Part shown: positions 12,861 through 27,003 of the stretch, in pieces
Layout: every line of letters starts with the position of its first letter
Numbering within the stretch: position 1 is the first letter of the stretch
Origin: a candidate division WWE3 bacterium GW2011_GWB1_41_6
Lineage (GTDB): Bacteria > Patescibacteriota > WWE3 > UBA101185 > UBA10185
DNA length: 47,478 nucleotides
NCBI GenBank assembly: GCA_000997355.1
Contig: LCBS01000004.1
Coordinates: forward strand, 1-47,478
Direction: 5' to 3'
Notes under the pieces: generated by a model
Told to the model about the DNA's origin: nothing
What the model saw: only the letters and a program-made list of their open reading frames with translations
The model's database searches: none
Translations under genes and position numbers: made by a program

Positions 12861-14162
12861 TTATGTCAAAAAACTTGTCATCCATTGCTGATTCATATGC
12901 TTCGTAACCTTTAAGGTTCTTATATTCGTCGGATCGTTAACGTCGTACAGGTCGAGGGCAACATGAGGTCCTATTTCACTAAGCACTTTGTCCCCATTCT
13001 GAACTTTGTGGTAGAGAAACGTGCTTAAATTCTCTGTGTCATACCAAGGGCGTGGGGCGCTTTCATGTAAATAAAAAGTGTAGTAGTACCAACCTAAAAA
13101 AAGTACCGTAAACATAAAACACAATTTAACAAACGACTCTAAATACTTCGACTTAACAACCGAAATAAGTTCCGTCATACCAACTCCGGAAAGAATGCTT
13201 AAAAACACGACTGGTAAGTACACGTGCCGATCAAAGGATATTATTCGGTGTGTGACTATTTGGAATAAAATCACAGGTAGGATAAAAAATAGAATTGCGA
13301 TTAATGTGATAAATTTCTTCCTTAAGATCAGACCAATTGCTCCGGCAGCTGCTAAGGGAAGTACAGGAAAAGCAAATTGGTAAAACGTTCCTAATACTGT
13401 CCGGATATCGGCAAACTCCTGGTCGATCTGTGTGTAATAGTAATAAACAAAACTTTCGAGTCTAAAGTAGGTAAATATGGTCAAACCAAGAACCAGCGGT
13501 GTAAAAAAATAGATCAGTATCGTCGTCCCTTTTCCTTTGTTATTAATGAGGTAGATTGACATTATTAGCAGGGTCAAAGGAAGGAACAAACCGGTTATGA
13601 TCTTTGTGGTAATGGATAAGAGCAATAACAGAGACGCGAGAAGAAAGTACGCAGGTAATGTCGGGCTCCGTTTTGTAGCAATCAGCAAACACGCTAATCC
13701 GCCCATAAGTAACATAGTGCTTTGCATATCCGCTGTAGCAAGTTTATTAATTGTATAGGATATGGGTATTATTGTTGCTATCAAAGCTGTAACAAAACCT
13801 GAGAACAACTTTATATTTTTGTTTTCCGAACTAACTGAGAAATAAGCGATAATACCGATCGATATTAATGTGAATAGTCCAAAAAGCAAACTCAAGATCC
13901 TGGAACCGGCGTACCCTCCAACTGTATAAGCGATGGCTGTAAGGGAAGGATACAAATAGTAATCTCCGGGTATCCAATTTTGAGGATTATATGCGCTCCA
14001 ATCATATTCAAACAAACCCATCTTTCCCACTAGAATGTAAATGGATTCGTCGTTAATATATGTGGTATCGGCAGAAAGGTTGTGAAACCTCAGCGAGTAA
14101 AATATAACTATAGTAACTATAAGTAAGTTATTAATGTTAAGATATTGTCTAACTTTTGTCAT
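12861..14162 (-). CDS. polytopic membrane protein, probable GT-C fold glycosyltransferase (ArnT/PMT-like)
   Basis: 433 aa with about 11 or more hydrophobic helices. A DE motif sits in the first loop (YINDESIYILVGKMG), as in the two GT-C paralogues at 39348 and 40970. Confidence 0.6.
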   Translation of the reverse strand: MTKVRQYLNINNLLIVTIVIFYSLRFHNLSADTTYINDESIYILVGKMGLFEYDWSAYNPQNWIPGDYYLYPSLTAIAYTVGGYAGSRILSLLFGLFTLISIGIIAYFSVSSENKNIKLFSGFVTALIATIIPISYTINKLATADMQSTMLLMGGLACLLIATKRSPTLPAYFLLASLLLLLSITTKIITGLFLPLTLLIMSIYLINNKGKGTTILIYFFTPLVLGLTIFTYFRLESFVYYYYTQIDQEFADIRTVLGTFYQFAFPVLPLAAAGAIGLILRKKFITLIAILFFILPVILFQIVTHRIISFDRHVYLPVVFLSILSGVGMTELISVVKSKYLESFVKLCFMFTVLFLGWYYYTFYLHESAPRPWYDTENLSTFLYHKVQNGDKVLSEIGPHVALDLYDVNDPTNIRTLKVTKHMNQQWMTSFLT

Positions 14163-17955: not shown

Positions 17956-19401
17956 ATGAGTCATCGCCTGACCCGATTTACATTTGTAATAACGGTAATC
18001 ATCCCGCTTTTATTGCTGGTGTTTGGTGTTTTCACACAACTCGTCGAAGCAGCCCCCATTAATATCAACACTACATCCACAAATAACGCTACATATCCCG
18101 GAGTAATGAACCATATGGTTGTTACTTCGGATAATACTATTCACACTTTCTTGCAGTTAGGCACAGAAACTATGACTTGCGATGGTGCACCTACAAACGG
18201 TCTTGTATGGGTAATGTCAACAGATTCAGGCGCTACCTGGGATTGTCAGGGACAGTTATCTTCCGATACTACAAATTTAAAATTCGCTTCAGCCCAAAAG
18301 GACAGTTTTGATAACATTTATGTTGTTTATTCAGGAATTGATAATACCCTAAGCACTGCCTACGATGTTTTATATAGAAAACTCACAAAAGGCGCTGGCT
18401 CCACATGGACATTTGAGGATGAGCAGGTTCTACTGGACGGAACTGCCGCAGAATCCTACAGCTATGCAACAATCGCCATTGAGGGTACAACGAGGCTATG
18501 GGTCTCAGCAAGAATTGACGTACTGGTTTACTATTCCAACGGCTTTACTACAGCTCCATCATGGACACTTGGACATAAGAGGTTTTTTGAGAAAATATGG
18601 AGCTTTGATGGAACCTCCACATATACTGATGAAACTACTGATGCATCAAACCTAACAAGTGCTGATGTTACGATGGTTTCGGTACCTAACTCCGCAATTT
18701 ACTTTGGACATAGTACAAAATTCGATTCCATTGCATGGATGCTGTCAACAATCGGAGTCGCGGGAACAATAGACTGGGAATATTATAACGGTAGTACCTG
18801 GAAACAAATCGAAGGATTTCAGATAGATCAGGTGAACGGAAATTTTACCAGCGTTAACAACGGCTATATTAATTTCACTATTCCCACAGATTGGGCTACT
18901 ACTTCCATAAACGGTGAAGGGGGTTCTTACTACTATGTTAGGGCTAGGGCAGCAACAAACTTCACAACACCTCCCGTCGGTACGAGAGTTGCTTCTACGA
19001 TCGCTAATCCTTCTCAGCGGACAACAGGAGGTATTCCTTCTATTGTAAGGTTCGGTTCCAAAATTGGTTTGATGTTTTTGGACGGTACTACAAGCTACAC
19101 ATTTACTTTCCGTTACCGCGCTGATACGGATGCTTTGGGATTATGGAGCTATGAGACCTTCTCTCCCACAACCGCTTCGAACATGACCACAATTACAAAT
19201 TTCAGTGCAGTAGGCAACACAAATGGTCACATTTACGTAATGTTCTTTAAAACAGGTGCAAACGATGTTTTCTTTGAGTTCTATGATGGAAACTCATGGC
19301 ATGACAAGAGTACCCGCCTTGACGATAATGCTGTGATTAGTAACCTTGGCTTATCAACAGACGGGGTGAATGTATGGGTGTTCTATACGGACAATATCTA
19401 A
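17956..19401 (+). CDS. giant surface protein, N-terminal segment (signal peptide, BNR-like region with one inserted WEYYNG/YYYVRAR module), terminated by an in-frame TAA
   Basis: Signal peptide MSHRLTRFTFVITVIIPLLLLVFGVFTQLVEAAP. Asp-box STDSGATW (18217-18240). Module signature WEYYNG (18775) ... GEGGSYYYVRARA (about 18928-18948). It shares its frame with the next ORF. Confidence 0.85.
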   Translation: MSHRLTRFTFVITVIIPLLLLVFGVFTQLVEAAPININTTSTNNATYPGVMNHMVVTSDNTIHTFLQLGTETMTCDGAPTNGLVWVMSTDSGATWDCQGQLSSDTTNLKFASAQKDSFDNIYVVYSGIDNTLSTAYDVLYRKLTKGAGSTWTFEDEQVLLDGTAAESYSYATIAIEGTTRLWVSARIDVLVYYSNGFTTAPSWTLGHKRFFEKIWSFDGTSTYTDETTDASNLTSADVTMVSVPNSAIYFGHSTKFDSIAWMLSTIGVAGTIDWEYYNGSTWKQIEGFQIDQVNGNFTSVNNGYINFTIPTDWATTSINGEGGSYYYVRARAATNFTTPPVGTRVASTIANPSQRTTGGIPSIVRFGSKIGLMFLDGTTSYTFTFRYRADTDALGLWSYETFSPTTASNMTTITNFSAVGNTNGHIYVMFFKTGANDVFFEFYDGNSWHDKSTRLDDNAVISNLGLSTDGVNVWVFYTDNI

Positions 19402-19503
19402 ACAGGAAATGTTTTCTATAAAAAAATCAACACACCCTTCGATGCCTGGTATAGACCTTACACAGATGACGGTGATCACGGAGATGCGGAGAAATTTGGT
19501 CAC

Positions 19504-22500
19504 TTGGTGAACCCTTTCGACAAAGTATGGTTATACAGAAACAGCTCATATTCCGATAAAACAACTTTTAACTCTCAAACTAGCTTGCACAACCTTGATG
19601 ATTATATTGCTTACAACACGCCGGGATTTGCATATGTTCATAATGTTACCGAAGCTGCTTCATCTACAGCTAACGATACATATTTTGGAAGCGATGCATC
19701 CGAATGGACCGTATTCGGTTCACTTGAGCAGTTTACATCTTTATATTGGACGCTAGGAACTAACGGAACCGACGGAACTATGGACTGGCAGTACTGGAAT
19801 GGTAGTTCGTGGGCGAGTTTGACTTTAACTGAATCCAGTAACCCTAACTTCACAGCCGGTGGTTATGCCAAATTCTCGACCCCCGGCGATTGGGTTAAAA
19901 GAAGAATAGCGGACCCACTTAATTCACAGATGGATAATGGTGAGTTTTACTATGTTAGAGCCGCTGTAAATACACCTTACACTGTAGCCCCGAAAGGAAC
20001 AAAGTTCTACAAAGATATACTCCTTAAAGATGCGGGTGATATTGCATATTTTGGTGAGAATGGAACATTCGAAAGTGTTTCTTACAGCTTAAGCTACGAG
20101 GGTTCGGGTGGAACTGTTGTCTGGGAGTATTGGAATGGTGGTACCTGGACAACGCTTACGACTACTGCTTCATCTAACCCTAATTTTGAAAATGCAGGAT
20201 ATATTGATTTTTCTCCTCCCGGTGACTGGGCTGTGACTAGTGTGAACGGGGAGGGTTCCGCCTATTATTATGTGAGGGCTAGAGTAAGTGTTGCTTTTAC
20301 ACAATACCCATCGGATGCATTAGCCTCACCAAACCGTCAAATGAACAACATAATTGTATCCAACAATCCGGTTTCAGATACCATACATGTGGTCTGGACC
20401 CAAAATATTGCATCTCCTGCTACTATCAAATCCGACACCATATCCGTTACAACCGCAGCAACTCCGGCATCAGCAGAATTCATAAACAACAACCAGATAA
20501 CTTATACCGGCGGAGCGGACTCTGGTCTGGAAAACCTTGGTAATGAGAACTATATTAAGACAAGTGATGGAACACTTCACTTATTCACAACAACTTCCAA
20601 CCTTAGTGTTAAGTGCGGCAGTATATATACCGTAGGGCTATTGTACTATCAGTCAACTGACGGAAGCACATGGACGTGCCAGGGAGAGATAACGAACCAT
20701 CCATCAGCACTTGTACCTTCCGTAGCAAAGGACAGTTCCGACAATATTTACTTGGTCTATGCCAAGGCAGGACTAGGCACGTCCTCAGCTACACTGGACG
20801 CAGACCTATGGTTCAGAAAATTAACTTATTCGGGCGGCACATGGACCATAGGATCACAACGGGTTATAGCAGCTGGAGCAACGTCGACGCTTGGTTATGC
20901 CTTACCCTCTATAGTGGTCGAAGATACTGACAGAATTTGGGTTACAGCAACCATCGAAGATACTTCAAGAAACTATAATAGAACTGTTTTGTATTACTCT
21001 AGTGACCTGACAGATAATCCGACATGGACAGAATCGTACACAGGTATTTACTTTGACAAAGTATGGAGTTACTACTCAAGTGTATATTCTAATGAAACAA
21101 CAGACGCGGGTAATACTACAACGGCCGATGTCCAAATGGCAAAGAATACTGGCGACATTATTTATTTTGGCAGAACAGCACAGTTCAATCACGTTTCATG
21201 GAGTCTTTCTACAAATGGTACATCCACAGGAAGAGTAGCATGGGAGTATTACGATGGGGATTCATGGGAACTGTTAGCTCTTAACAGTGCTAATCCTTAT
21301 AGTACCGAAAACACACACTTTAACACAAGTACCTCGGTAATGTTTCCAGTACCGTCTGATTGGGCGACCACTTCAATAAATGGTGAAGGGGACTCCTACT
21401 ATTACGTTAGAGCCAGGGTTACTAACTCATACACAACAGCACCGGTTGGAACTATTATGATGAACGCATTTAGTAGCCCTGCTAATAATTTAGATGTGAC
21501 GGACGATAGTGCACAACTAGTGAGGTATGGAACAGATAAAGTTGCTGTCATATTCAGTGATGATAACTACCAGTACTATATGAGAACTAGAACCGATACG
21601 GATCCTGCAGGCCAATGGAGTGATCCGCCAACCAGGATAACTCCGCATGCGGATGGGGGAAATTTGTACGGTACAGACTTTAAAGCACTTGGAACCTCAT
21701 CAGGTAATATCCTCATGGTATACAAACAGTACTATTACAATCCCGAAATAAGATTTACCTATTATAACGGAGCCACATGGTCATTACCGGTAACTCTATT
21801 CTACAACACACCTTTAGACAGAAACTTCGAAGAGTACGGGCAGCTCATTGACCTTGCAACGGATGACACCAATGTGTGGGTTTTCTCCTATGACACATCA
21901 CAATTAACTTCCAAGGAATACACAAACAGAGACTGGCTTGGTACAACCGGGCAAGGGATACTTTCATATAAAAAGGGGGTTCCTCCCTTTACGTCTAGTG
22001 ATTTTGATGCCAATGCCACGCCTGTAATATCTTATAACGGATTCTTCGATAATGTATGGACCTTCGATTCTAGTGCTACTACGTATTCAAATAAAACAAG
22101 TGAAGCAATGTCCAAAGGGGAGCCTTCCCAGATATGGAGATACACAAACAGCACTTATACCGACTACGATCAGTACAGCATTGATATGGAGCCCTATTTC
22201 AGTCGGGCATGGACATACGCTTCAGGTGCATTCACCGATGCTACATACAATGTTGCACAAGCGGGATCGCCGTCGGCATCTACATTAATGACTTCGACAG
22301 GCGATATACTTTATCTAGGAAATGATAAACAGATAGATTCCGTAGGATGGACATTATCAACACCAGGCGCAGGCGGTACGGTAGAGTGGGAGTATTGGAA
22401 TGGTGCATCGTGGTCATCGTTGTCACTAATAAGCTCAAACAACATAAACCTTACAGGAAACGGTGATATTATCTTTACGGTTCCCGGTGACTGGGTTACT

Positions 22501-25500
22501 ACAACTCTAGGCTCTGATAATTCAGCAAAGTATTATATAAGGGCACGGGCAACCGGAAATTATTCAACACCTCCTGTCGAATCCTATCTAGGACCTAATG
22601 TCCCGTTAGCAGATAATGGTGACATAATTTATCTTGGCGGCGAAACTTCATTTTCATTCCTGATGTGGTACATAGAAAGACGCGGGGTTATAGCTGACGA
22701 CAGCTTTATCTGGGAGTATTGGAACGGTACTACATGGTCATCCCTCGAAAGCTACTATATCTGGCATGATTTCACACACGACTTCTCATCTTGGTCAGAT
22801 TTCCTGTTCTTCAACAAACCTGCCGACTGGGCAACAACATCAGTCAACGGAGAAGGTGGATCTTATTACTATGTCAGGGGAAGAGCTACCGCTGATTATT
22901 CAGAAATACCGTTCGGGACACTTGATTTCGAACTCGCAGGTGACCTTCCAATACCTGGAGATATTGACGATATAACATATTACGGTAAATCTACCAAATT
23001 CGAAACTGTTAACATGGATCAGATCGACGGACCTTCTACATATTACACGTCGAATGGCGCCAGGGGCGGCTCAGTAGTTTGGGAATATTATAACGGAAGC
23101 GCGTGGGCACCATTAACTAAATTTACGGAAGTCGCCGGTGCAAATTACTATGGTAGAGAGTATTGGCAGTATGTTAGCTTTAAACCACCCGGTGATTGGT
23201 CCACAACCGCAGTTAACGGTGAGGGTACTTCATACTACTATGTAAGGTCACGGGTAACTCAAGAATATTCGGACCCTCCGATACTATCACAAGTGTTAGC
23301 AGCGCAACCAACCACATGGGCTGTAGTTGAGAGTACTGTAGAATCTGAAGCCTATAACATTGCCTGGGTTGATGGGATGGCTAACACCGGTATAGCGGAC
23401 AATAATACCAATTATGTAGCCATCCGAGGGAATTTTATCGGTGGAGGCGGGGAGCCATCCAACACAACACCAAACAGTCCCTCTACCCTAACGCAGTACA
23501 AATCAGATGGAACAACCGACGAAACAACAGTTGTACTTAAGATGACTGTCAGCGATACAGATAATCCAGAGGTTCTGACACCTCAATTTGAAGTCCGGGA
23601 AGTCGGTACGGCTTTCTCAAATACCTCTACTAATACGGGATCTAATGTTAATTACTCAGGAACTCCTCTTACAGCAAGTGTGACTGTGAACGGGCTTGTG
23701 AACGACTCTTCATACCATTGGCAAGCCCGGGTCTGCGACGATGAAAGTGCTTGTTCTGCATGGGTCGCCTATGGAGGAAACCTCGAATCGGCCGCAGATT
23801 TTATTATCGACACCGGAGCCGTGGGTACGGGACCAACCGGCACGATAGTTATTAACAACGGTGACGGTTACACAGATTCGGTTGGTGTAACGCTAAGTTT
23901 AACTGTAGAAGACGATACAACAGCTGATGCCGACATAGACATGCTTCTCTCCAACGTATCTGATTTCGCCGGAGCGTCGTGGGAAGATTTTTCAGCAACA
24001 AGATTATGGACTCTTTCTTCAGGTGACGGCATAAAAACTGTATACGTAAAGTACAGAGATACCGACACAAATGAATCAAGTTCGTATAACGACACTATAA
24101 TACTGGATGCTAACAGGGCCCCTACAGGCAGGCTTGTTATCAATTCCGATAACGGGAAAGCATCAGGAGATTCCGCTGAATATACTAATGACCGTAGTGT
24201 CAAATTATACATATCGGTGGACCAAGATGGCGGTACCAAGGTTCAGCAAATGAAGATCTCTAACGATAAAAATTTCCGGGATGCGGATTGGGAATCATAT
24301 GCTGAAGAAAAGGACTGGAGGCTAACCAATAACGACGGATTAAAGACTGTATACATTAAAATCAGAGACGAAGCAGGTAACGAGTCGAACAGGTTCAGCG
24401 AATCAATTACCCTGGACACAACACCCCCCGAACTTCAGATAACACGAATCGAAACTGCACAAAGCAGCGGAGGTACCTACTACTCAACTTCTACAAACTT
24501 ATCTTTTTACGGTATTGCTGAAGCTGATTCCAAAGTGAAAATGGTATTAAACGGTTCAGCCGATACTAGTGAGACCGATGTCCTGGGCGATAAAAAATGG
24601 CAATTTACTGACACTACATTAAACAATGGAAATAATGGAGTTTTATTTGAAGCAAAAGATAACGCAAACAATAGGACCATATTAAGCGTACATGTCGTTG
24701 TAGATAGTTCGGGCGAATCCTTCCCGGATGAAGTTAACGAGCAGATCGGTTTACAGGTTCCTATTGGAAGTCCTATAAAAGAACCTAAACTTACTAATAT
24801 CACCACCCGCGAAGTAGTAGAAGATACAGACCTATGCTACAAACCTATGACCTACGAGGGTAAAGTGTTCGACTTTTTCACATTCGAAAAGAAAGTTAAA
24901 CTGCCAAAAGTGAACGGAACATTCTACGCTATCGAACCTGACGGCGAAGGAGGGTGGTTTATTGGCGGTAAATTCAATAAAGTCGGTAAGGAAATTGTGA
25001 GTAATGTTGTTCATATTTTACCGAACGGACAGGTTGACAAGAATTGGGCAGCGTTTATTGACGGCGAGGTATATACGATCGAATTAGATAAGCAAAATGA
25101 GATGGTGTACCTTGGCGGTAATTTTACTTATGTAAATGATATTCAGAAGAAGAATATAGCAGCCGTAAGCACAGAAACAGGTATACTAACTAAATTCAAC
25201 CCTAAAGTTAATTCAGTTGTACTCTCACTCGAAAAACATGTTTCCGAACCCACCCTGTACGCCGCGACATGTACCGGACCGGAGGTTATAGATCCGGCGA
25301 CTACCGAACCGTATTTTGACAGTGAACTTAGAGCTCCTACAATAAACACAGTCGATTATATATATGAACCACAGACCGGGACTTCGGTAGCGTTAATCTC
25401 CTGGGTAAACCCCGAAAGCGCACCTGTCAGTTATGTAGATGTAAGTACGGATCCCGACTTTAAGACTTATTACAACAAACATGTTCCTGGAACCGACAAT

Positions 25501-27003
25501 ACTGTGGGTCCGGTCGGTTTTGATAATACAAGTAAAACATCGACACAAGCAGAACTTACAATATACCCGGACTCCATATACTATGCCCGTTTGTATAATG
25601 GGGAACACAGCCCATCCACATCATTCTCAATTAAGTCAAAAAAGAACGCGGTAGACACCTACCCTCCCGAACCTCCAAAACCCGCCCAGGGACAAAAACC
25701 CGATGAAGACCTAAACGCCCCGTGGTTCATACTACCCGAGGGGATTGATATGAGCGAACCTGACGACACTCTGGTAACAATACTGTGGGTAAATCCCCAT
25801 AAGAAAGTAACATATGTAGATATAAGCACAGAACCGGAATTCGACGACTACTTCAATAAAAAAGTAACACCGTTTCCGGAGACTATGGCATCAGAAGGTT
25901 TCAGGCTGGAAGAAAGTACCACGCTTACGGAGTCGATCGGGGGTATGTTCGACACGCAAGATAAAGAACCTCCCGGCCAAGTCAAAAAACAGACTCAATT
26001 AAAATTAAGGCCGTATACAAGATATTACGTCAGACTTTACAACGGAAAGCATAGTCCGGTCACGTCGTTCGTTCTTCCGGAAATAACGGCCGAGCCGGAC
26101 ACAACAGTACCGGACGTTATTATCAATAAAACTTTGGACGAGTCAACAGTTCAACCTCCCACTACGACCGATCCAATACAGACAGTGACAGAAACTACAC
26201 TACCGGATACATCACAAGAAACACCAACGTACTCGTACGTTGAGGAGCCTAACTTCATTACAGTAGACACAGAAACTTCGGATGTTTCAGAAGGACCACC
26301 CGTAGGAGGCACAGTACTTGGCATCGCTTCAGACTCCAACACATCTCATATTTATATCGCCGGCTCGTTCAACGAGGTTATCAACGAACGGCGTGAACAG
26401 TTAGCCGCCATAGATACCTATAACACACAAACCACAGATTGGGACCCAAGCGCAAACGATTCCGTAACAAACATAGTTTACGAACCATCAGGTAATAAGA
26501 TCTACGCAGCAGGACTGTTTGATATGATCGGGGGCAAAAACAGAAACGGTGTTGCTCAAATAGATCCAAGAACTGGAGAGGTTACCAACTGGAACCCATA
26601 CTGCTACTGGTGGCTGATCCTTTCCATAGCGGCTTTTGTTATAACATCAATGTATTACGGCTTAATTGCCAATCAGGATGAAAGACCTTTCATGTGGTGG
26701 TTCGTTCCACTGCTTACCGGTATAGCAGCGTTATTAGGCGACCAGTATGCTCATAACTTCTACATCCCAACACGATACGATCACTTCATGTGGTTATTTG
26801 TACTCATAGCACTCGCAATCCCGTCTATTTCCTACATTTTGTACACAAAGAGGGATGAGAAGAAAAGAGTGAATAAAATATTCGGCGGACCAACTGCTCC
26901 TCAAGATACTGCCCAAAACACACCTCAAAACCCGGCTTCAGTACCTTACTTCCCATCACCACCACAGCCCATGCAGCCATCCATCCAACCCGGGATCTCA
27001 TAA
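19504..27003 (+). CDS. giant repeat-rich surface protein (2499 aa from the first start codon; the frame is actually open from 19402)
   Basis: It holds six WEYWNG...YYYVRAR modules, a second BNR-like region (STDGSTW, 20653-20673) and an HWQAR-type Ig/FN3-like domain. Two modules carry the signature (G)(I/L)KTVY(V/I)K.RD...NES, followed by TLDTTPPEL. Delta-60/DUF5122-like propeller blades are split by two FN3-like repeats. The C-terminus has three TM helices and a Pro/Gln-rich tail. There is no signal peptide at the TTG start. Confidence 0.9.
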   Translation: MVNPFDKVWLYRNSSYSDKTTFNSQTSLHNLDDYIAYNTPGFAYVHNVTEAASSTANDTYFGSDASEWTVFGSLEQFTSLYWTLGTNGTDGTMDWQYWNGSSWASLTLTESSNPNFTAGGYAKFSTPGDWVKRRIADPLNSQMDNGEFYYVRAAVNTPYTVAPKGTKFYKDILLKDAGDIAYFGENGTFESVSYSLSYEGSGGTVVWEYWNGGTWTTLTTTASSNPNFENAGYIDFSPPGDWAVTSVNGEGSAYYYVRARVSVAFTQYPSDALASPNRQMNNIIVSNNPVSDTIHVVWTQNIASPATIKSDTISVTTAATPASAEFINNNQITYTGGADSGLENLGNENYIKTSDGTLHLFTTTSNLSVKCGSIYTVGLLYYQSTDGSTWTCQGEITNHPSALVPSVAKDSSDNIYLVYAKAGLGTSSATLDADLWFRKLTYSGGTWTIGSQRVIAAGATSTLGYALPSIVVEDTDRIWVTATIEDTSRNYNRTVLYYSSDLTDNPTWTESYTGIYFDKVWSYYSSVYSNETTDAGNTTTADVQMAKNTGDIIYFGRTAQFNHVSWSLSTNGTSTGRVAWEYYDGDSWELLALNSANPYSTENTHFNTSTSVMFPVPSDWATTSINGEGDSYYYVRARVTNSYTTAPVGTIMMNAFSSPANNLDVTDDSAQLVRYGTDKVAVIFSDDNYQYYMRTRTDTDPAGQWSDPPTRITPHADGGNLYGTDFKALGTSSGNILMVYKQYYYNPEIRFTYYNGATWSLPVTLFYNTPLDRNFEEYGQLIDLATDDTNVWVFSYDTSQLTSKEYTNRDWLGTTGQGILSYKKGVPPFTSSDFDANATPVISYNGFFDNVWTFDSSATTYSNKTSEAMSKGEPSQIWRYTNSTYTDYDQYSIDMEPYFSRAWTYASGAFTDATYNVAQAGSPSASTLMTSTGDILYLGNDKQIDSVGWTLSTPGAGGTVEWEYWNGASWSSLSLISSNNINLTGNGDIIFTVPGDWVTTTLGSDNSAKYYIRARATGNYSTPPVESYLGPNVPLADNGDIIYLGGETSFSFLMWYIERRGVIADDSFIWEYWNGTTWSSLESYYIWHDFTHDFSSWSDFLFFNKPADWATTSVNGEGGSYYYVRGRATADYSEIPFGTLDFELAGDLPIPGDIDDITYYGKSTKFETVNMDQIDGPSTYYTSNGARGGSVVWEYYNGSAWAPLTKFTEVAGANYYGREYWQYVSFKPPGDWSTTAVNGEGTSYYYVRSRVTQEYSDPPILSQVLAAQPTTWAVVESTVESEAYNIAWVDGMANTGIADNNTNYVAIRGNFIGGGGEPSNTTPNSPSTLTQYKSDGTTDETTVVLKMTVSDTDNPEVLTPQFEVREVGTAFSNTSTNTGSNVNYSGTPLTASVTVNGLVNDSSYHWQARVCDDESACSAWVAYGGNLESAADFIIDTGAVGTGPTGTIVINNGDGYTDSVGVTLSLTVEDDTTADADIDMLLSNVSDFAGASWEDFSATRLWTLSSGDGIKTVYVKYRDTDTNESSSYNDTIILDANRAPTGRLVINSDNGKASGDSAEYTNDRSVKLYISVDQDGGTKVQQMKISNDKNFRDADWESYAEEKDWRLTNNDGLKTVYIKIRDEAGNESNRFSESITLDTTPPELQITRIETAQSSGGTYYSTSTNLSFYGIAEADSKVKMVLNGSADTSETDVLGDKKWQFTDTTLNNGNNGVLFEAKDNANNRTILSVHVVVDSSGESFPDEVNEQIGLQVPIGSPIKEPKLTNITTREVVEDTDLCYKPMTYEGKVFDFFTFEKKVKLPKVNGTFYAIEPDGEGGWFIGGKFNKVGKEIVSNVVHILPNGQVDKNWAAFIDGEVYTIELDKQNEMVYLGGNFTYVNDIQKKNIAAVSTETGILTKFNPKVNSVVLSLEKHVSEPTLYAATCTGPEVIDPATTEPYFDSELRAPTINTVDYIYEPQTGTSVALISWVNPESAPVSYVDVSTDPDFKTYYNKHVPGTDNTVGPVGFDNTSKTSTQAELTIYPDSIYYARLYNGEHSPSTSFSIKSKKNAVDTYPPEPPKPAQGQKPDEDLNAPWFILPEGIDMSEPDDTLVTILWVNPHKKVTYVDISTEPEFDDYFNKKVTPFPETMASEGFRLEESTTLTESIGGMFDTQDKEPPGQVKKQTQLKLRPYTRYYVRLYNGKHSPVTSFVLPEITAEPDTTVPDVIINKTLDESTVQPPTTTDPIQTVTETTLPDTSQETPTYSYVEEPNFITVDTETSDVSEGPPVGGTVLGIASDSNTSHIYIAGSFNEVINERREQLAAIDTYNTQTTDWDPSANDSVTNIVYEPSGNKIYAAGLFDMIGGKNRNGVAQIDPRTGEVTNWNPYCYWWLILSIAAFVITSMYYGLIANQDERPFMWWFVPLLTGIAALLGDQYAHNFYIPTRYDHFMWLFVLIALAIPSISYILYTKRDEKKRVNKIFGGPTAPQDTAQNTPQNPASVPYFPSPPQPMQPSIQPGIS

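What the first reader, a model, noticed from the sequence alone, without database searches (positions are those of the whole stretch)
19399..19503. A single in-frame TAA splits one 3014-codon giant surface-protein gene into a 481-aa and a 2499-aa ORF
ORFs 17956..19401 and 19504..27003 share a frame (offset 1548 = 516 x 3). I translated the spacer myself: ...VWVFYTDNI * TGNVFYKKINTPFDAWYRPYTDDGDHGDAEKFGHLVNPFDKVWLYRN... The TAA at 19399-19401 is the only stop; all 34 following codons are open.

Homology runs straight through the stop. The paralogous junction later in the same protein reads NVWVFSYDTSQ...GQGILSYKKGVPPFTSSDF...FFDNVWTFDSS, with the same NVWVF / YKK..PF / FD(K/N)VW landmarks.

Only the upstream piece has a signal peptide and only the downstream piece has the C-terminal membrane anchor, so neither half looks complete alone. 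Possible explanations are a fresh nonsense mutation (pseudogenisation or on/off variation of a costly adhesin), an assembly or population-consensus artefact, programmed readthrough, or reinitiation at TTG 19504 / GTG 19507.
Basis: seen in the sequence. Interest (0 to 1): 0.8.

Follow-up and report, generated by a model that had tools for sequence, protein, structure and literature searches.

The report
Private nonsense mutation in giant gene
One assembled strain of a groundwater CPR bacterium (candidate division WWE3) carries a single T-to-A change that turns a leucine codon into a stop inside a 3029-codon surface-protein gene; nine other assemblies of the same species have the leucine codon there, and two of them carry the whole gene uninterrupted, so this is an ordinary strain-specific knockout, or less likely a base error, not recoding.

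Summary
Window 17956-27003 is one reading frame of 3016 codons with a single internal stop, TAA at 19399-19401. Homology to the protein family runs through that stop.

The explanation is mundane. Nine other assemblies of the same species (about 99.2-99.6% identical; candidate division WWE3, Rifle groundwater) all read TTA (Leu) at this codon. Two of them encode an uninterrupted 3029-aa protein with the same signal peptide and the same C-terminal membrane anchor. The window therefore carries a private T-to-A change at 19400.

TAA is the normal terminator in this genome (28 of 39 large ORFs). The stop is not conserved. No RNA structure, repeat or convincing restart signal accompanies it. Between strains the gene shows pN/pS of about 0.05-0.07, and the downstream 7.6 kb shows no further decay, so the event is very recent.

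It is most likely a real strain-specific truncation allele. It would yield a 481-aa signal-peptide fragment without the anchor. A consensus error is less likely.

A sister MAG and a Logan assembly carry an independent 16-bp frameshift in the same gene. That is the only mildly interesting point. Interest is low.

The parts
17956..27003 (+). The whole giant surface-protein gene (3014 sense codons plus one internal TAA plus the terminal TAA). Its intact allele in sister assemblies is 3029 codons.
17956..19401 (+). Upstream piece: 481 aa ending in the premature TAA. It holds the signal peptide (hydrophobic aa 8-26, nt 17977-18033) and a sialidase-like beta-propeller with an inserted WEYWNG...YYYVRAR domain.
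19399..19401 (+). Premature stop TAA. Base 19400 is A in the window and T (TTA, Leu) in all 9 other conspecific assemblies that cover it.
19402..19503 (+). 34 open codons between the stop and the first possible restart codon. They encode the conserved YKK..PF strand that completes the hairpin begun by NVWVFY.
19504..27003 (+). Downstream piece: 2499 aa from TTG 19504. NCBI annotates 2498 aa from GTG 19507. It has no signal peptide of its own.
26614..26841 (+). C-terminal hydrophobic (transmembrane) segments, aa 2887-2905 and 2944-2962. This is the membrane anchor that is lost after the premature stop.
18515..18516 (+). Site of a private 18-bp in-frame deletion (removes WDGTMY). It lies within a private tract of mostly synonymous SNPs at 18462-18496.
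23508..23509 (+). Site of a private 24-bp in-frame deletion (removes GTTVIATG) between 10-bp direct repeats GGAACAACCG.
20162..20177 (+). 16 bp present in the window but deleted in the sister MAG GW2011_GWA1_41_8.

Best explanation
The window is a whole 47,478-bp contig of a candidate division WWE3 (CPR) MAG from Rifle groundwater. Its giant gene is the same gene that sister assemblies of the same species encode as one 3029-aa protein. That protein has an N-terminal signal peptide, two sialidase-like beta-propeller modules each with an inserted WEYWNG/YYYVRAR domain, several further such domains, Ig-like domains, and C-terminal transmembrane helices.

In the window's strain a single transversion, TTA (Leu) to TAA at base 19400, created a premature stop in the loop of a beta-hairpin of the first propeller.

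- Shown: the change is private to this sequence, the ancestral state is a sense codon, and the gene has otherwise been under strong purifying selection.
- Inferred: translation ends at codon 481 and yields an exported 481-aa fragment with an incomplete propeller and no anchor. The downstream 2533 codons are then untranslated, or at most give a cytoplasmic product with no signal peptide. This makes it a very recent loss-of-function or truncation allele segregating in the population.
For: - All 9 conspecific assemblies covering the site (L017-L023, L027, L028; about 99.2-99.6% identical where measured) read TTA there; the window alone reads TAA.
- Two further protein records also have Leu at this position: P0292 from another NCBI WWE3 MAG, and the Logan product P0295.
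- Full-length 3029-aa ORFs P0296 and P0297 run from the same start to the same C-terminus.
- The 481-aa product is on record for one contig only, the 47,478-bp one.
- pN/pS between the window allele and the intact alleles is 0.045-0.068. SNPs are mostly at third codon positions.
- If the downstream 7.6 kb were evolving neutrally, a second stop would be 95% likely by about 0.8-1.1% divergence. None is present.
- TAA terminates 28 of 39 large ORFs in the window.
- 26 homologous modules in 9 other genomes are uninterrupted across the equivalent junction. At least 15 representative proteins align across the stop position in a single stretch.
- The AF2 model places the stop between strand 441-447 and strand 454-459.
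- Inference: a base seen in no other strain cannot arise from mixing strains in a consensus, and Illumina consensus substitution errors are far rarer than real SNPs.
Against: - No reads were available, so a consensus error cannot be excluded.
- The same contig carries three other private deletions (25 bp frameshifting, 18 bp and 24 bp in frame). That could mean a lower-quality assembly rather than a divergent strain.
- The fate of either product (secretion, degradation) is untested.
Confidence: 0.72

Rival explanations
1. The TAA is a base-calling or consensus error in this one MAG. The organism really has TTA and a plain 3015-codon version of the gene.
For: - The variant is a singleton among 10 assemblies.
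- The contig has other private oddities: a 25-bp frameshifting deletion in a neighbouring gene and two in-frame deletions.
- Sister MAG names suggest single-digit coverage. GW2011_GWA1_41_8 reads by the naming convention as GC 41%, coverage about 8x; this is my reading of the name, not a tool result.
- Another family member at 1.4x coverage also shows a lone in-frame stop.
Against: - Substitution errors in Illumina consensus are rare compared with the real private SNPs on this contig.
- Those private SNPs are mostly synonymous, so they are biological rather than errors.
- The other private differences are indels with microhomology or direct repeats typical of real slippage.
- Strain mixing cannot create a base that no other strain has.
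Confidence: 0.2
2. This is adaptive population-level on/off variation. Independent truncating alleles of the giant anchored protein are favoured, for example to escape a phage or host response that targets it, or to release a soluble propeller fragment.
For: - Two different disruptive alleles fall in the first quarter of the same gene within one species. One is the nonsense codon at 482 (window). The other is a 16-bp frameshift near codon 742, seen in NCBI GW2011_GWA1_41_8 and implied by a Logan assembly whose product differs by one residue.
- Both alleles keep the signal peptide and lose the anchor.
- The gene lies in a segment absent from a relative whose MgtE is 70% identical.
- The closest non-conspecific homologue is a stand-alone 516-aa protein.
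Against: - A 9-kb gene is simply a large mutational target.
- pN/pS of about 0.06 shows the intact protein is normally needed.
- Only 2 of about 12 sequences are disrupted, and no allele frequencies are known.
- The Logan run may not be independent of the NCBI MAG.
Confidence: 0.12
3. Programmed stop-codon readthrough or local recoding of TAA produces the full-length protein.
For: The frame is open and homologous on both sides of a single stop.
Against: - The stop is absent from every conspecific and every family relative examined.
- TAA is the main genuine terminator here.
- There is no stable RNA structure downstream (z = +0.95).
- There is no Rfam match and no tRNA in the window.
- From general knowledge, UAA is read by both release factors and is the least leaky stop in bacteria.
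Confidence: 0.02
4. The two ORFs are a functional split gene. The second is expressed by reinitiation at TTG 19504 or GTG 19507.
For: - GGAG motifs lie 12-15 nt upstream of TTG/GTG.
- NCBI annotates a 2498-aa protein starting at GTG 19507.
Against: - The restart site is 102 nt from the stop.
- The SD-like spacing is poor, and most genes here lack an SD and look leaderless.
- There is no promoter or terminator signal above the shuffled expectation.
- The product would lack a signal peptide.
- Sister strains have one ORF.
Confidence: 0.03

Closest known systems
Premature-stop-codon (PMSC) alleles of Listeria monocytogenes inlA (PMC6558679 and the references it cites)
   Same: A point nonsense mutation hits a surface protein that has an N-terminal signal peptide and a C-terminal anchor. 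Full-length alleles coexist in the same species. Several independent truncating mutation types occur. The predicted product keeps the export signal and loses the anchor.
   Different: InlA is a LRR protein of about 800 aa (size and domain type from my own knowledge), which PMC6558679 describes as anchored to the cell wall. The protein here is 3029 aa of propeller and beta-sandwich modules with C-terminal transmembrane helices, in an uncultivated CPR bacterium. Secretion and phenotype are shown for InlA and are not tested here.
Giant genes of uncultivated bacteria whose integrity is obscured by assembly fragmentation (bioRxiv 10.1101/2023.11.21.568195)
   Same: A very long single ORF for a multidomain protein appears as several shorter genes in public annotation.
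   Different: That work concerns far larger Omnitrophota proteins with other domains. The problem there is assembly fragmentation, not a point nonsense change. No homology to those proteins was tested or claimed here.
Stop-codon reassignment or recoding: code 25 in Gracilibacteria/Absconditabacteria, and recoded phages (bioRxiv 10.1101/2021.08.26.457843)
   Same: An in-frame stop lies inside conserved coding sequence in a CPR genome.
   Different: TAA is the main terminator here and the in-frame stop is unique to one assembly. Recoding requires many conserved in-frame stops.
Phase-variable (contingency) surface-protein genes switched by simple-sequence repeats
   Same: Both give on/off heterogeneity of a large surface protein within a population.
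   Different: The change here is a base substitution outside any repeat. The nearby A7 run at 19420-19426 is identical in all assemblies. The change is not readily reversible.

Membership tests
Strain-specific premature-stop (truncation) allele of an anchored surface protein | An intact full-length allele exists in the same species | tested here: met
   P0296 and P0297 are 3029 aa, on L027 and L028. L018 is open for at least 2947 aa.
Strain-specific premature-stop (truncation) allele of an anchored surface protein | A single-nucleotide change converts a sense codon to a stop | tested here: met
   TTA in 9 assemblies against TAA in the window, at base 19400.
Strain-specific premature-stop (truncation) allele of an anchored surface protein | The truncated product keeps the export signal and loses the anchor | tested here: met
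   Hydropathy shows a hydrophobic segment at aa 8-26 upstream of the stop. The only other strongly hydrophobic segments are at aa 2887-2962.
Strain-specific premature-stop (truncation) allele of an anchored surface protein | The truncated protein is made and released, and the variant is real in the reads | not testable with these tools
   No reads, proteomics or culture were available.
Programmed stop-codon readthrough | The stop codon is conserved at the same position in relatives | tested here: not met
   The stop is absent in 9 conspecific assemblies, in 26 modules from 9 other genomes, and in at least 15 representative proteins that align across the site.
Programmed stop-codon readthrough | A leaky stop context or a stimulatory downstream RNA structure | tested here: not met
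   The context is TAA-A. The downstream 120 nt fold no better than shuffles (z = +0.95). There is no Rfam hit.
Alternative genetic code with TAA reassigned | TAA is not used as a terminator and recurs in frame at conserved positions in many genes | tested here: not met
   28 of 39 large ORFs end in TAA. There is only one in-frame TAA in this gene. Neighbouring genes give full-length Pfam matches.
Phase-variable contingency locus | A simple-sequence repeat or invertible element at the switch site | tested here: not met
   There are no meaningful direct or inverted repeats in 19300-19520. The change is a substitution.
Functional split gene (two independently expressed halves) | The second half has its own start signals and its own export signal, and the split is conserved | tested here: not met
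   There is no signal peptide after the stop. The SD-like motif is weak and poorly spaced. There is no promoter or terminator enrichment. The split is not conserved.
CPR giant propeller/WEYWNG surface-protein family (unnamed; members in Daviesbacteria, Woesebacteria, WWE3) | Repeated modules of a sialidase-like propeller plus a WEYWNG...YYYVRAR domain, in one ORF of 1200-3200 aa that starts with a signal peptide or TM segment | tested here: met
   - Related loci L004-L015 carry single ORFs of 1240-3227 aa.
- The independent profile hits the window sequence.
- Foldseek matches are to sialidases and propeller lectins, but TM-scores are low (~0.3) and the model is of moderate quality, pLDDT 63.5.
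- No Pfam family passes its threshold.

The most novel reading that the evidence does not exclude
The nonsense allele (window) and the independent 16-bp frameshift allele (GW2011_GWA1_41_8 and a Logan assembly) are not random damage. They would be recurrent, selected truncations that detach the N-terminal propeller part of a giant anchored protein from the cell. This would give a groundwater CPR population a mixture of armed and disarmed (or secreting) cells, for instance under pressure from phage or from the host cell it attaches to.
Probability: 0.12. Interest if true: 0.5.

Novelty: new member of a known kind. Interest (0 to 1): 0.2.

Why it matters
- Annotation: two 'hypothetical proteins' in the public record (481 aa and 2498 aa) are really one 3029-aa surface protein carrying a private nonsense mutation. 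Gene catalogues for CPR genomes will miscount and mis-size such proteins.
- Biology: it adds a documented case of within-population truncation alleles, two independent ones, in a giant and probably attachment-related protein of an uncultivated episymbiont lineage.
- Limits: it does not bear on genetic-code variation or translational recoding.

Tried and rejected
- Global TAA reassignment: rejected. TAA ends 28 of 39 ORFs.
- The run of five consecutive ORFs in frame 1 (15946, 16951, 17956, 19504, 27043) as a sign of wider readthrough: rejected. They are unrelated genes: MgtE, an M10 peptidase, the giant gene and CorA.
- Single-protein scans of genome contigs and metagenome contigs with the post-stop region found nothing.
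- A profile search of the 5.8-billion-protein set with A2 returned only P0001, so that search was wasted.
- Exact look-ups of the 481-aa ORF and of rpsD found nothing. The window's own proteins appear to be masked, or were called with other start codons.
- The route that worked was to search the conserved neighbour MgtE and then fetch the contigs that encode the identical protein.
- P0001, a stand-alone 516-aa homologue, was considered as evidence for a natural two-gene arrangement. It is rejected as decisive: it is only 43% identical, not syntenic, sits on a 2-kb contig, and extends about 30 aa beyond the stop-equivalent position.
- Gene conversion from elsewhere in the window as the source of the private SNP tract at 18462-18515: no donor was found.
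- Sequence search of the PDB with ORF1 found nothing.
- A suppressor tRNA or known RNA element in the window: none.

Full report
**1. The observation**

Window 19399-19401 is TAA. It lies in frame between ORF 17956..19401 (481 aa) and ORF 19504..27003 (2499 aa from TTG). Translating 17956-27003 gives 3016 codons with a single internal stop, at codon 482.

Fused residues 32-620 align with the second copy of the module (about 835-1487) in one BLASTP HSP of 305 bits, E 9e-94, which runs through the stop.

I also built a profile only from 26 modules of nine other genomes, with no window sequence in it. It aligns the fused sequence as one domain over profile positions 1-178 of 230. ORF1 alone ends at position 115, the spacer's YKK..PF falls at 128-139, and FDKVW at 156-160. 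The 34-residue spacer alone is not significant (1.3 bits); the evidence is colinearity.

Hydropathy confirms a hydrophobic N-terminal segment (aa 8-26), C-terminal membrane segments (aa 2887-2905 and 2944-2962), and nothing hydrophobic just after the stop.

**2. Not a code change or a recoding signal**

- TAA ends 28 of 39 large ORFs in the window; TAG ends 9 and TGA ends 2.
- Neighbouring genes are ordinary and intact: MgtE, an M10-like peptidase, CorA, DsbB and rpsD.
- The window has no tRNA and no Rfam match.
- The 120 nt from the stop onward fold no better than shuffled sequence (z = +0.95).
- There are no repeats or inverted repeats at the site.
- Promoter-like and terminator-like sites do not exceed the shuffled expectation.
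- The possible restart codons are TTG 19504 and GTG 19507, 102 nt downstream. They have only a poorly spaced GGAG. Most genes here lack an SD and instead have a TATAAT-like box just before the start codon.

**3. The protein family**

The 481-aa ORF has few homologues, mostly fragments. A scan of GTDB genomes with a conserved-motif alignment found 13 loci. They are in Daviesbacteria, Woesebacteria and other Patescibacteria MAGs, plus several records labelled otherwise (uncultured Gammaproteobacteria or Pseudomonadales, Nanoarchaeia, Dehalococcoidales).

In nine of these loci the match lies in one long ORF of 1240-3227 aa. Several of these start with the same signal peptide and propeller arrangement as the window's ORF1. 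Every one of the 27 junction-type modules in them is uninterrupted.

A full HMMER scan of 1.84 billion representative proteins found no close orthologue; listed identities to the query are 27-44%. At least 15 representatives align across the stop position in a single stretch, and most of them are 1100-3200 aa.

A shallow-alignment AlphaFold2 model (pLDDT 63.5, pTM 0.60) puts the stop in the turn between strand 441-447 (NVWVFYT) and strand 454-459 (NVFYKK). Foldseek matches are to sialidases, endosialidases and propeller lectins, with low TM-scores of about 0.3. The 'sialidase-like propeller' label is therefore tentative. No Pfam model passes its threshold.

**4. The decisive evidence: conspecific assemblies**

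The neighbouring MgtE protein is found with 100% identity on at least 23 public contigs. The loci fetched (L017-L025) are about 99.2-99.6% identical to the window over 12-21 kb. They come from Rifle groundwater data: PRJNA268031 re-assemblies, 'ANAN16' scaffolds, and NCBI GCA_000997575.1.

A cluster look-up names the organism as candidate division WWE3 bacterium (GW2011_GWA1_41_8 for L017). It also shows that the window is a whole 47,478-bp NCBI contig. On that contig the two pieces are annotated as separate proteins of 481 aa (P0293) and 2498 aa (P0290, starting at GTG 19507).

At the stop codon, all seven loci from that look-up that reach the site read TTA. So do the two loci that carry full-length genes. 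Two further protein records, P0292 and the Logan product P0295, have Leu there. The window alone has TAA.

Two ENA assemblies encode an uninterrupted 3029-aa protein with the same N- and C-termini (P0296 on a 53,936-bp scaffold, P0297 on a 16,059-bp contig). The arithmetic fits exactly: 3014 sense codons + Leu482 + 6 residues (an 18-bp indel after 18515) + 8 residues (a 24-bp indel after 23508) = 3029.

The closest non-conspecific homologue, P0001, also has TTA at the aligned codon.

**5. Age and selection**

- Between the window allele and the intact alleles, pN/pS is 0.045-0.068.
- Strain SNPs are overwhelmingly at third codon positions and occur in blocks. These include a private block at 18462-18496 next to the 18-bp deletion. 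The window therefore represents a genuinely distinct strain of a gene kept under strong purifying selection.
- The change at 19400 is an isolated singleton.
- If the 7.6 kb downstream were evolving neutrally, a further stop would be 95% likely by 0.8-1.1% divergence, even ignoring indels. There is none.
- Downstream of the stop, the window's private changes at the protein level are one missense change and one in-frame deletion.
- The disruption is therefore very recent, or not real.

**6. Real mutation or error?**

No reads are available here.

Arguments for a real variant:
- No other strain has this base, so strain mixing cannot produce it.
- Consensus substitution errors are far rarer than the real private SNPs on this contig.

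Arguments for caution:
- It is a singleton.
- The same contig has a private 25-bp frameshifting deletion in the neighbouring 487-aa gene and two private in-frame deletions.
- These MAGs appear to be low coverage, judging from the naming convention.

I put a real nonsense allele at about 0.7 and an error at about 0.2.

**7. Mechanism and consequences (inferred)**

Termination at codon 481 would give an exported fragment. It would carry the signal peptide and a propeller lacking its final conserved strand (YKK..PF), and it would have no membrane anchor. The downstream ORF has no export signal.

The closest known analogue is the premature-stop alleles of Listeria inlA, which yield secreted, unanchored protein (PMC6558679).

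**8. The one point of wider interest**

The sister MAG GW2011_GWA1_41_8 (L017) carries an independent 16-bp deletion at window 20162-20177. It splits the same gene into 760 + 2264 aa.

This makes two independent truncating alleles in the first quarter of one gene in one population. The gene also sits in a segment absent from a relative whose MgtE is 70% identical. This pattern could reflect selection for loss or shedding. It could equally reflect only the large mutational target of a 9-kb gene. Allele frequencies from reads would decide.

**9. Verdict**

Readthrough, recoding and functional reinitiation are not supported. This is a new instance of a well-known kind of event, and interest is low.

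Noticed in passing
window 12926-12927 (minus-strand ORF 12861..14162): There is a private 25-bp deletion relative to 8 sister assemblies. It frameshifts the 487-aa hypothetical membrane protein: the window ORF is 433 aa and the last ~72 residues are replaced by an out-of-frame tail. This is a second disrupted gene on the same contig.
   Followed up: yes
window 20162-20177; L017 near 14290: NCBI WWE3 bacterium GW2011_GWA1_41_8 lacks these 16 bp. The deletion frameshifts the same giant gene into 760 aa + 2264 aa. A Logan assembly of SRR29904083 shows the same split (DNA not available). This is a disruption independent of the window's TAA.
   Followed up: yes
window 18462-18516 and 23508-23509: The window allele has a private tract of 9 mostly synonymous SNPs ending in an 18-bp in-frame deletion (removes WDGTMY). 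It also has a 24-bp in-frame deletion between 10-bp direct repeats GGAACAACCG. No donor for the SNP tract was found elsewhere in the window.
   Followed up: partly
L006 9869-19381 (GTDB MAG DBS2-1.bin136, contig coverage 1.4x): This family member has a 3170-codon frame containing exactly one in-frame TGA, at the invariant Gly of the IVRFG motif (IVRF*TNIGVIY). TGA also ends other long ORFs there, so it looks like a GGA-to-TGA error or mutation rather than code 25.
   Followed up: partly
window, upstream of many start codons (e.g. 14472, 15898(-), 15946, 27043, 28415): Many genes lack a Shine-Dalgarno motif and instead have a TATAAT-like box 6-10 nt before the start codon. This suggests that leaderless mRNAs are common in this WWE3 genome.
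   Followed up: no
L026 1149-5367: A relative whose MgtE is 70% identical has the order MgtE, M10 peptidase, DsbB, C39 peptidase, SurA_N. It has no giant gene, CorA or rpsD in between, so the giant gene lies in a variable segment.
   Followed up: no
L001 259-1809 (P0001): The closest non-conspecific homologue (43% identity, same propeller-with-insert layout) is a stand-alone 516-aa protein. It ends about 30 aa after the stop-equivalent position and may be followed by a convergent ORF. The N-terminal module may therefore exist naturally as a short secreted protein.
   Followed up: partly
L002 8772-8812; L003/L014 4300-8727: Other metagenomic copies of the family are broken by frameshifts: one in a Logan contig, and many in a long-read Woesebacteria assembly. 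Fragmented annotation of these giant genes is common.
   Followed up: partly
window 15946, 16951, 17956, 19504, 27043: Five consecutive plus-strand ORFs start in the same reading frame. Apart from the two pieces of the giant gene, they are unrelated genes (MgtE, M10 peptidase, CorA), so this is coincidence.
   Followed up: yes
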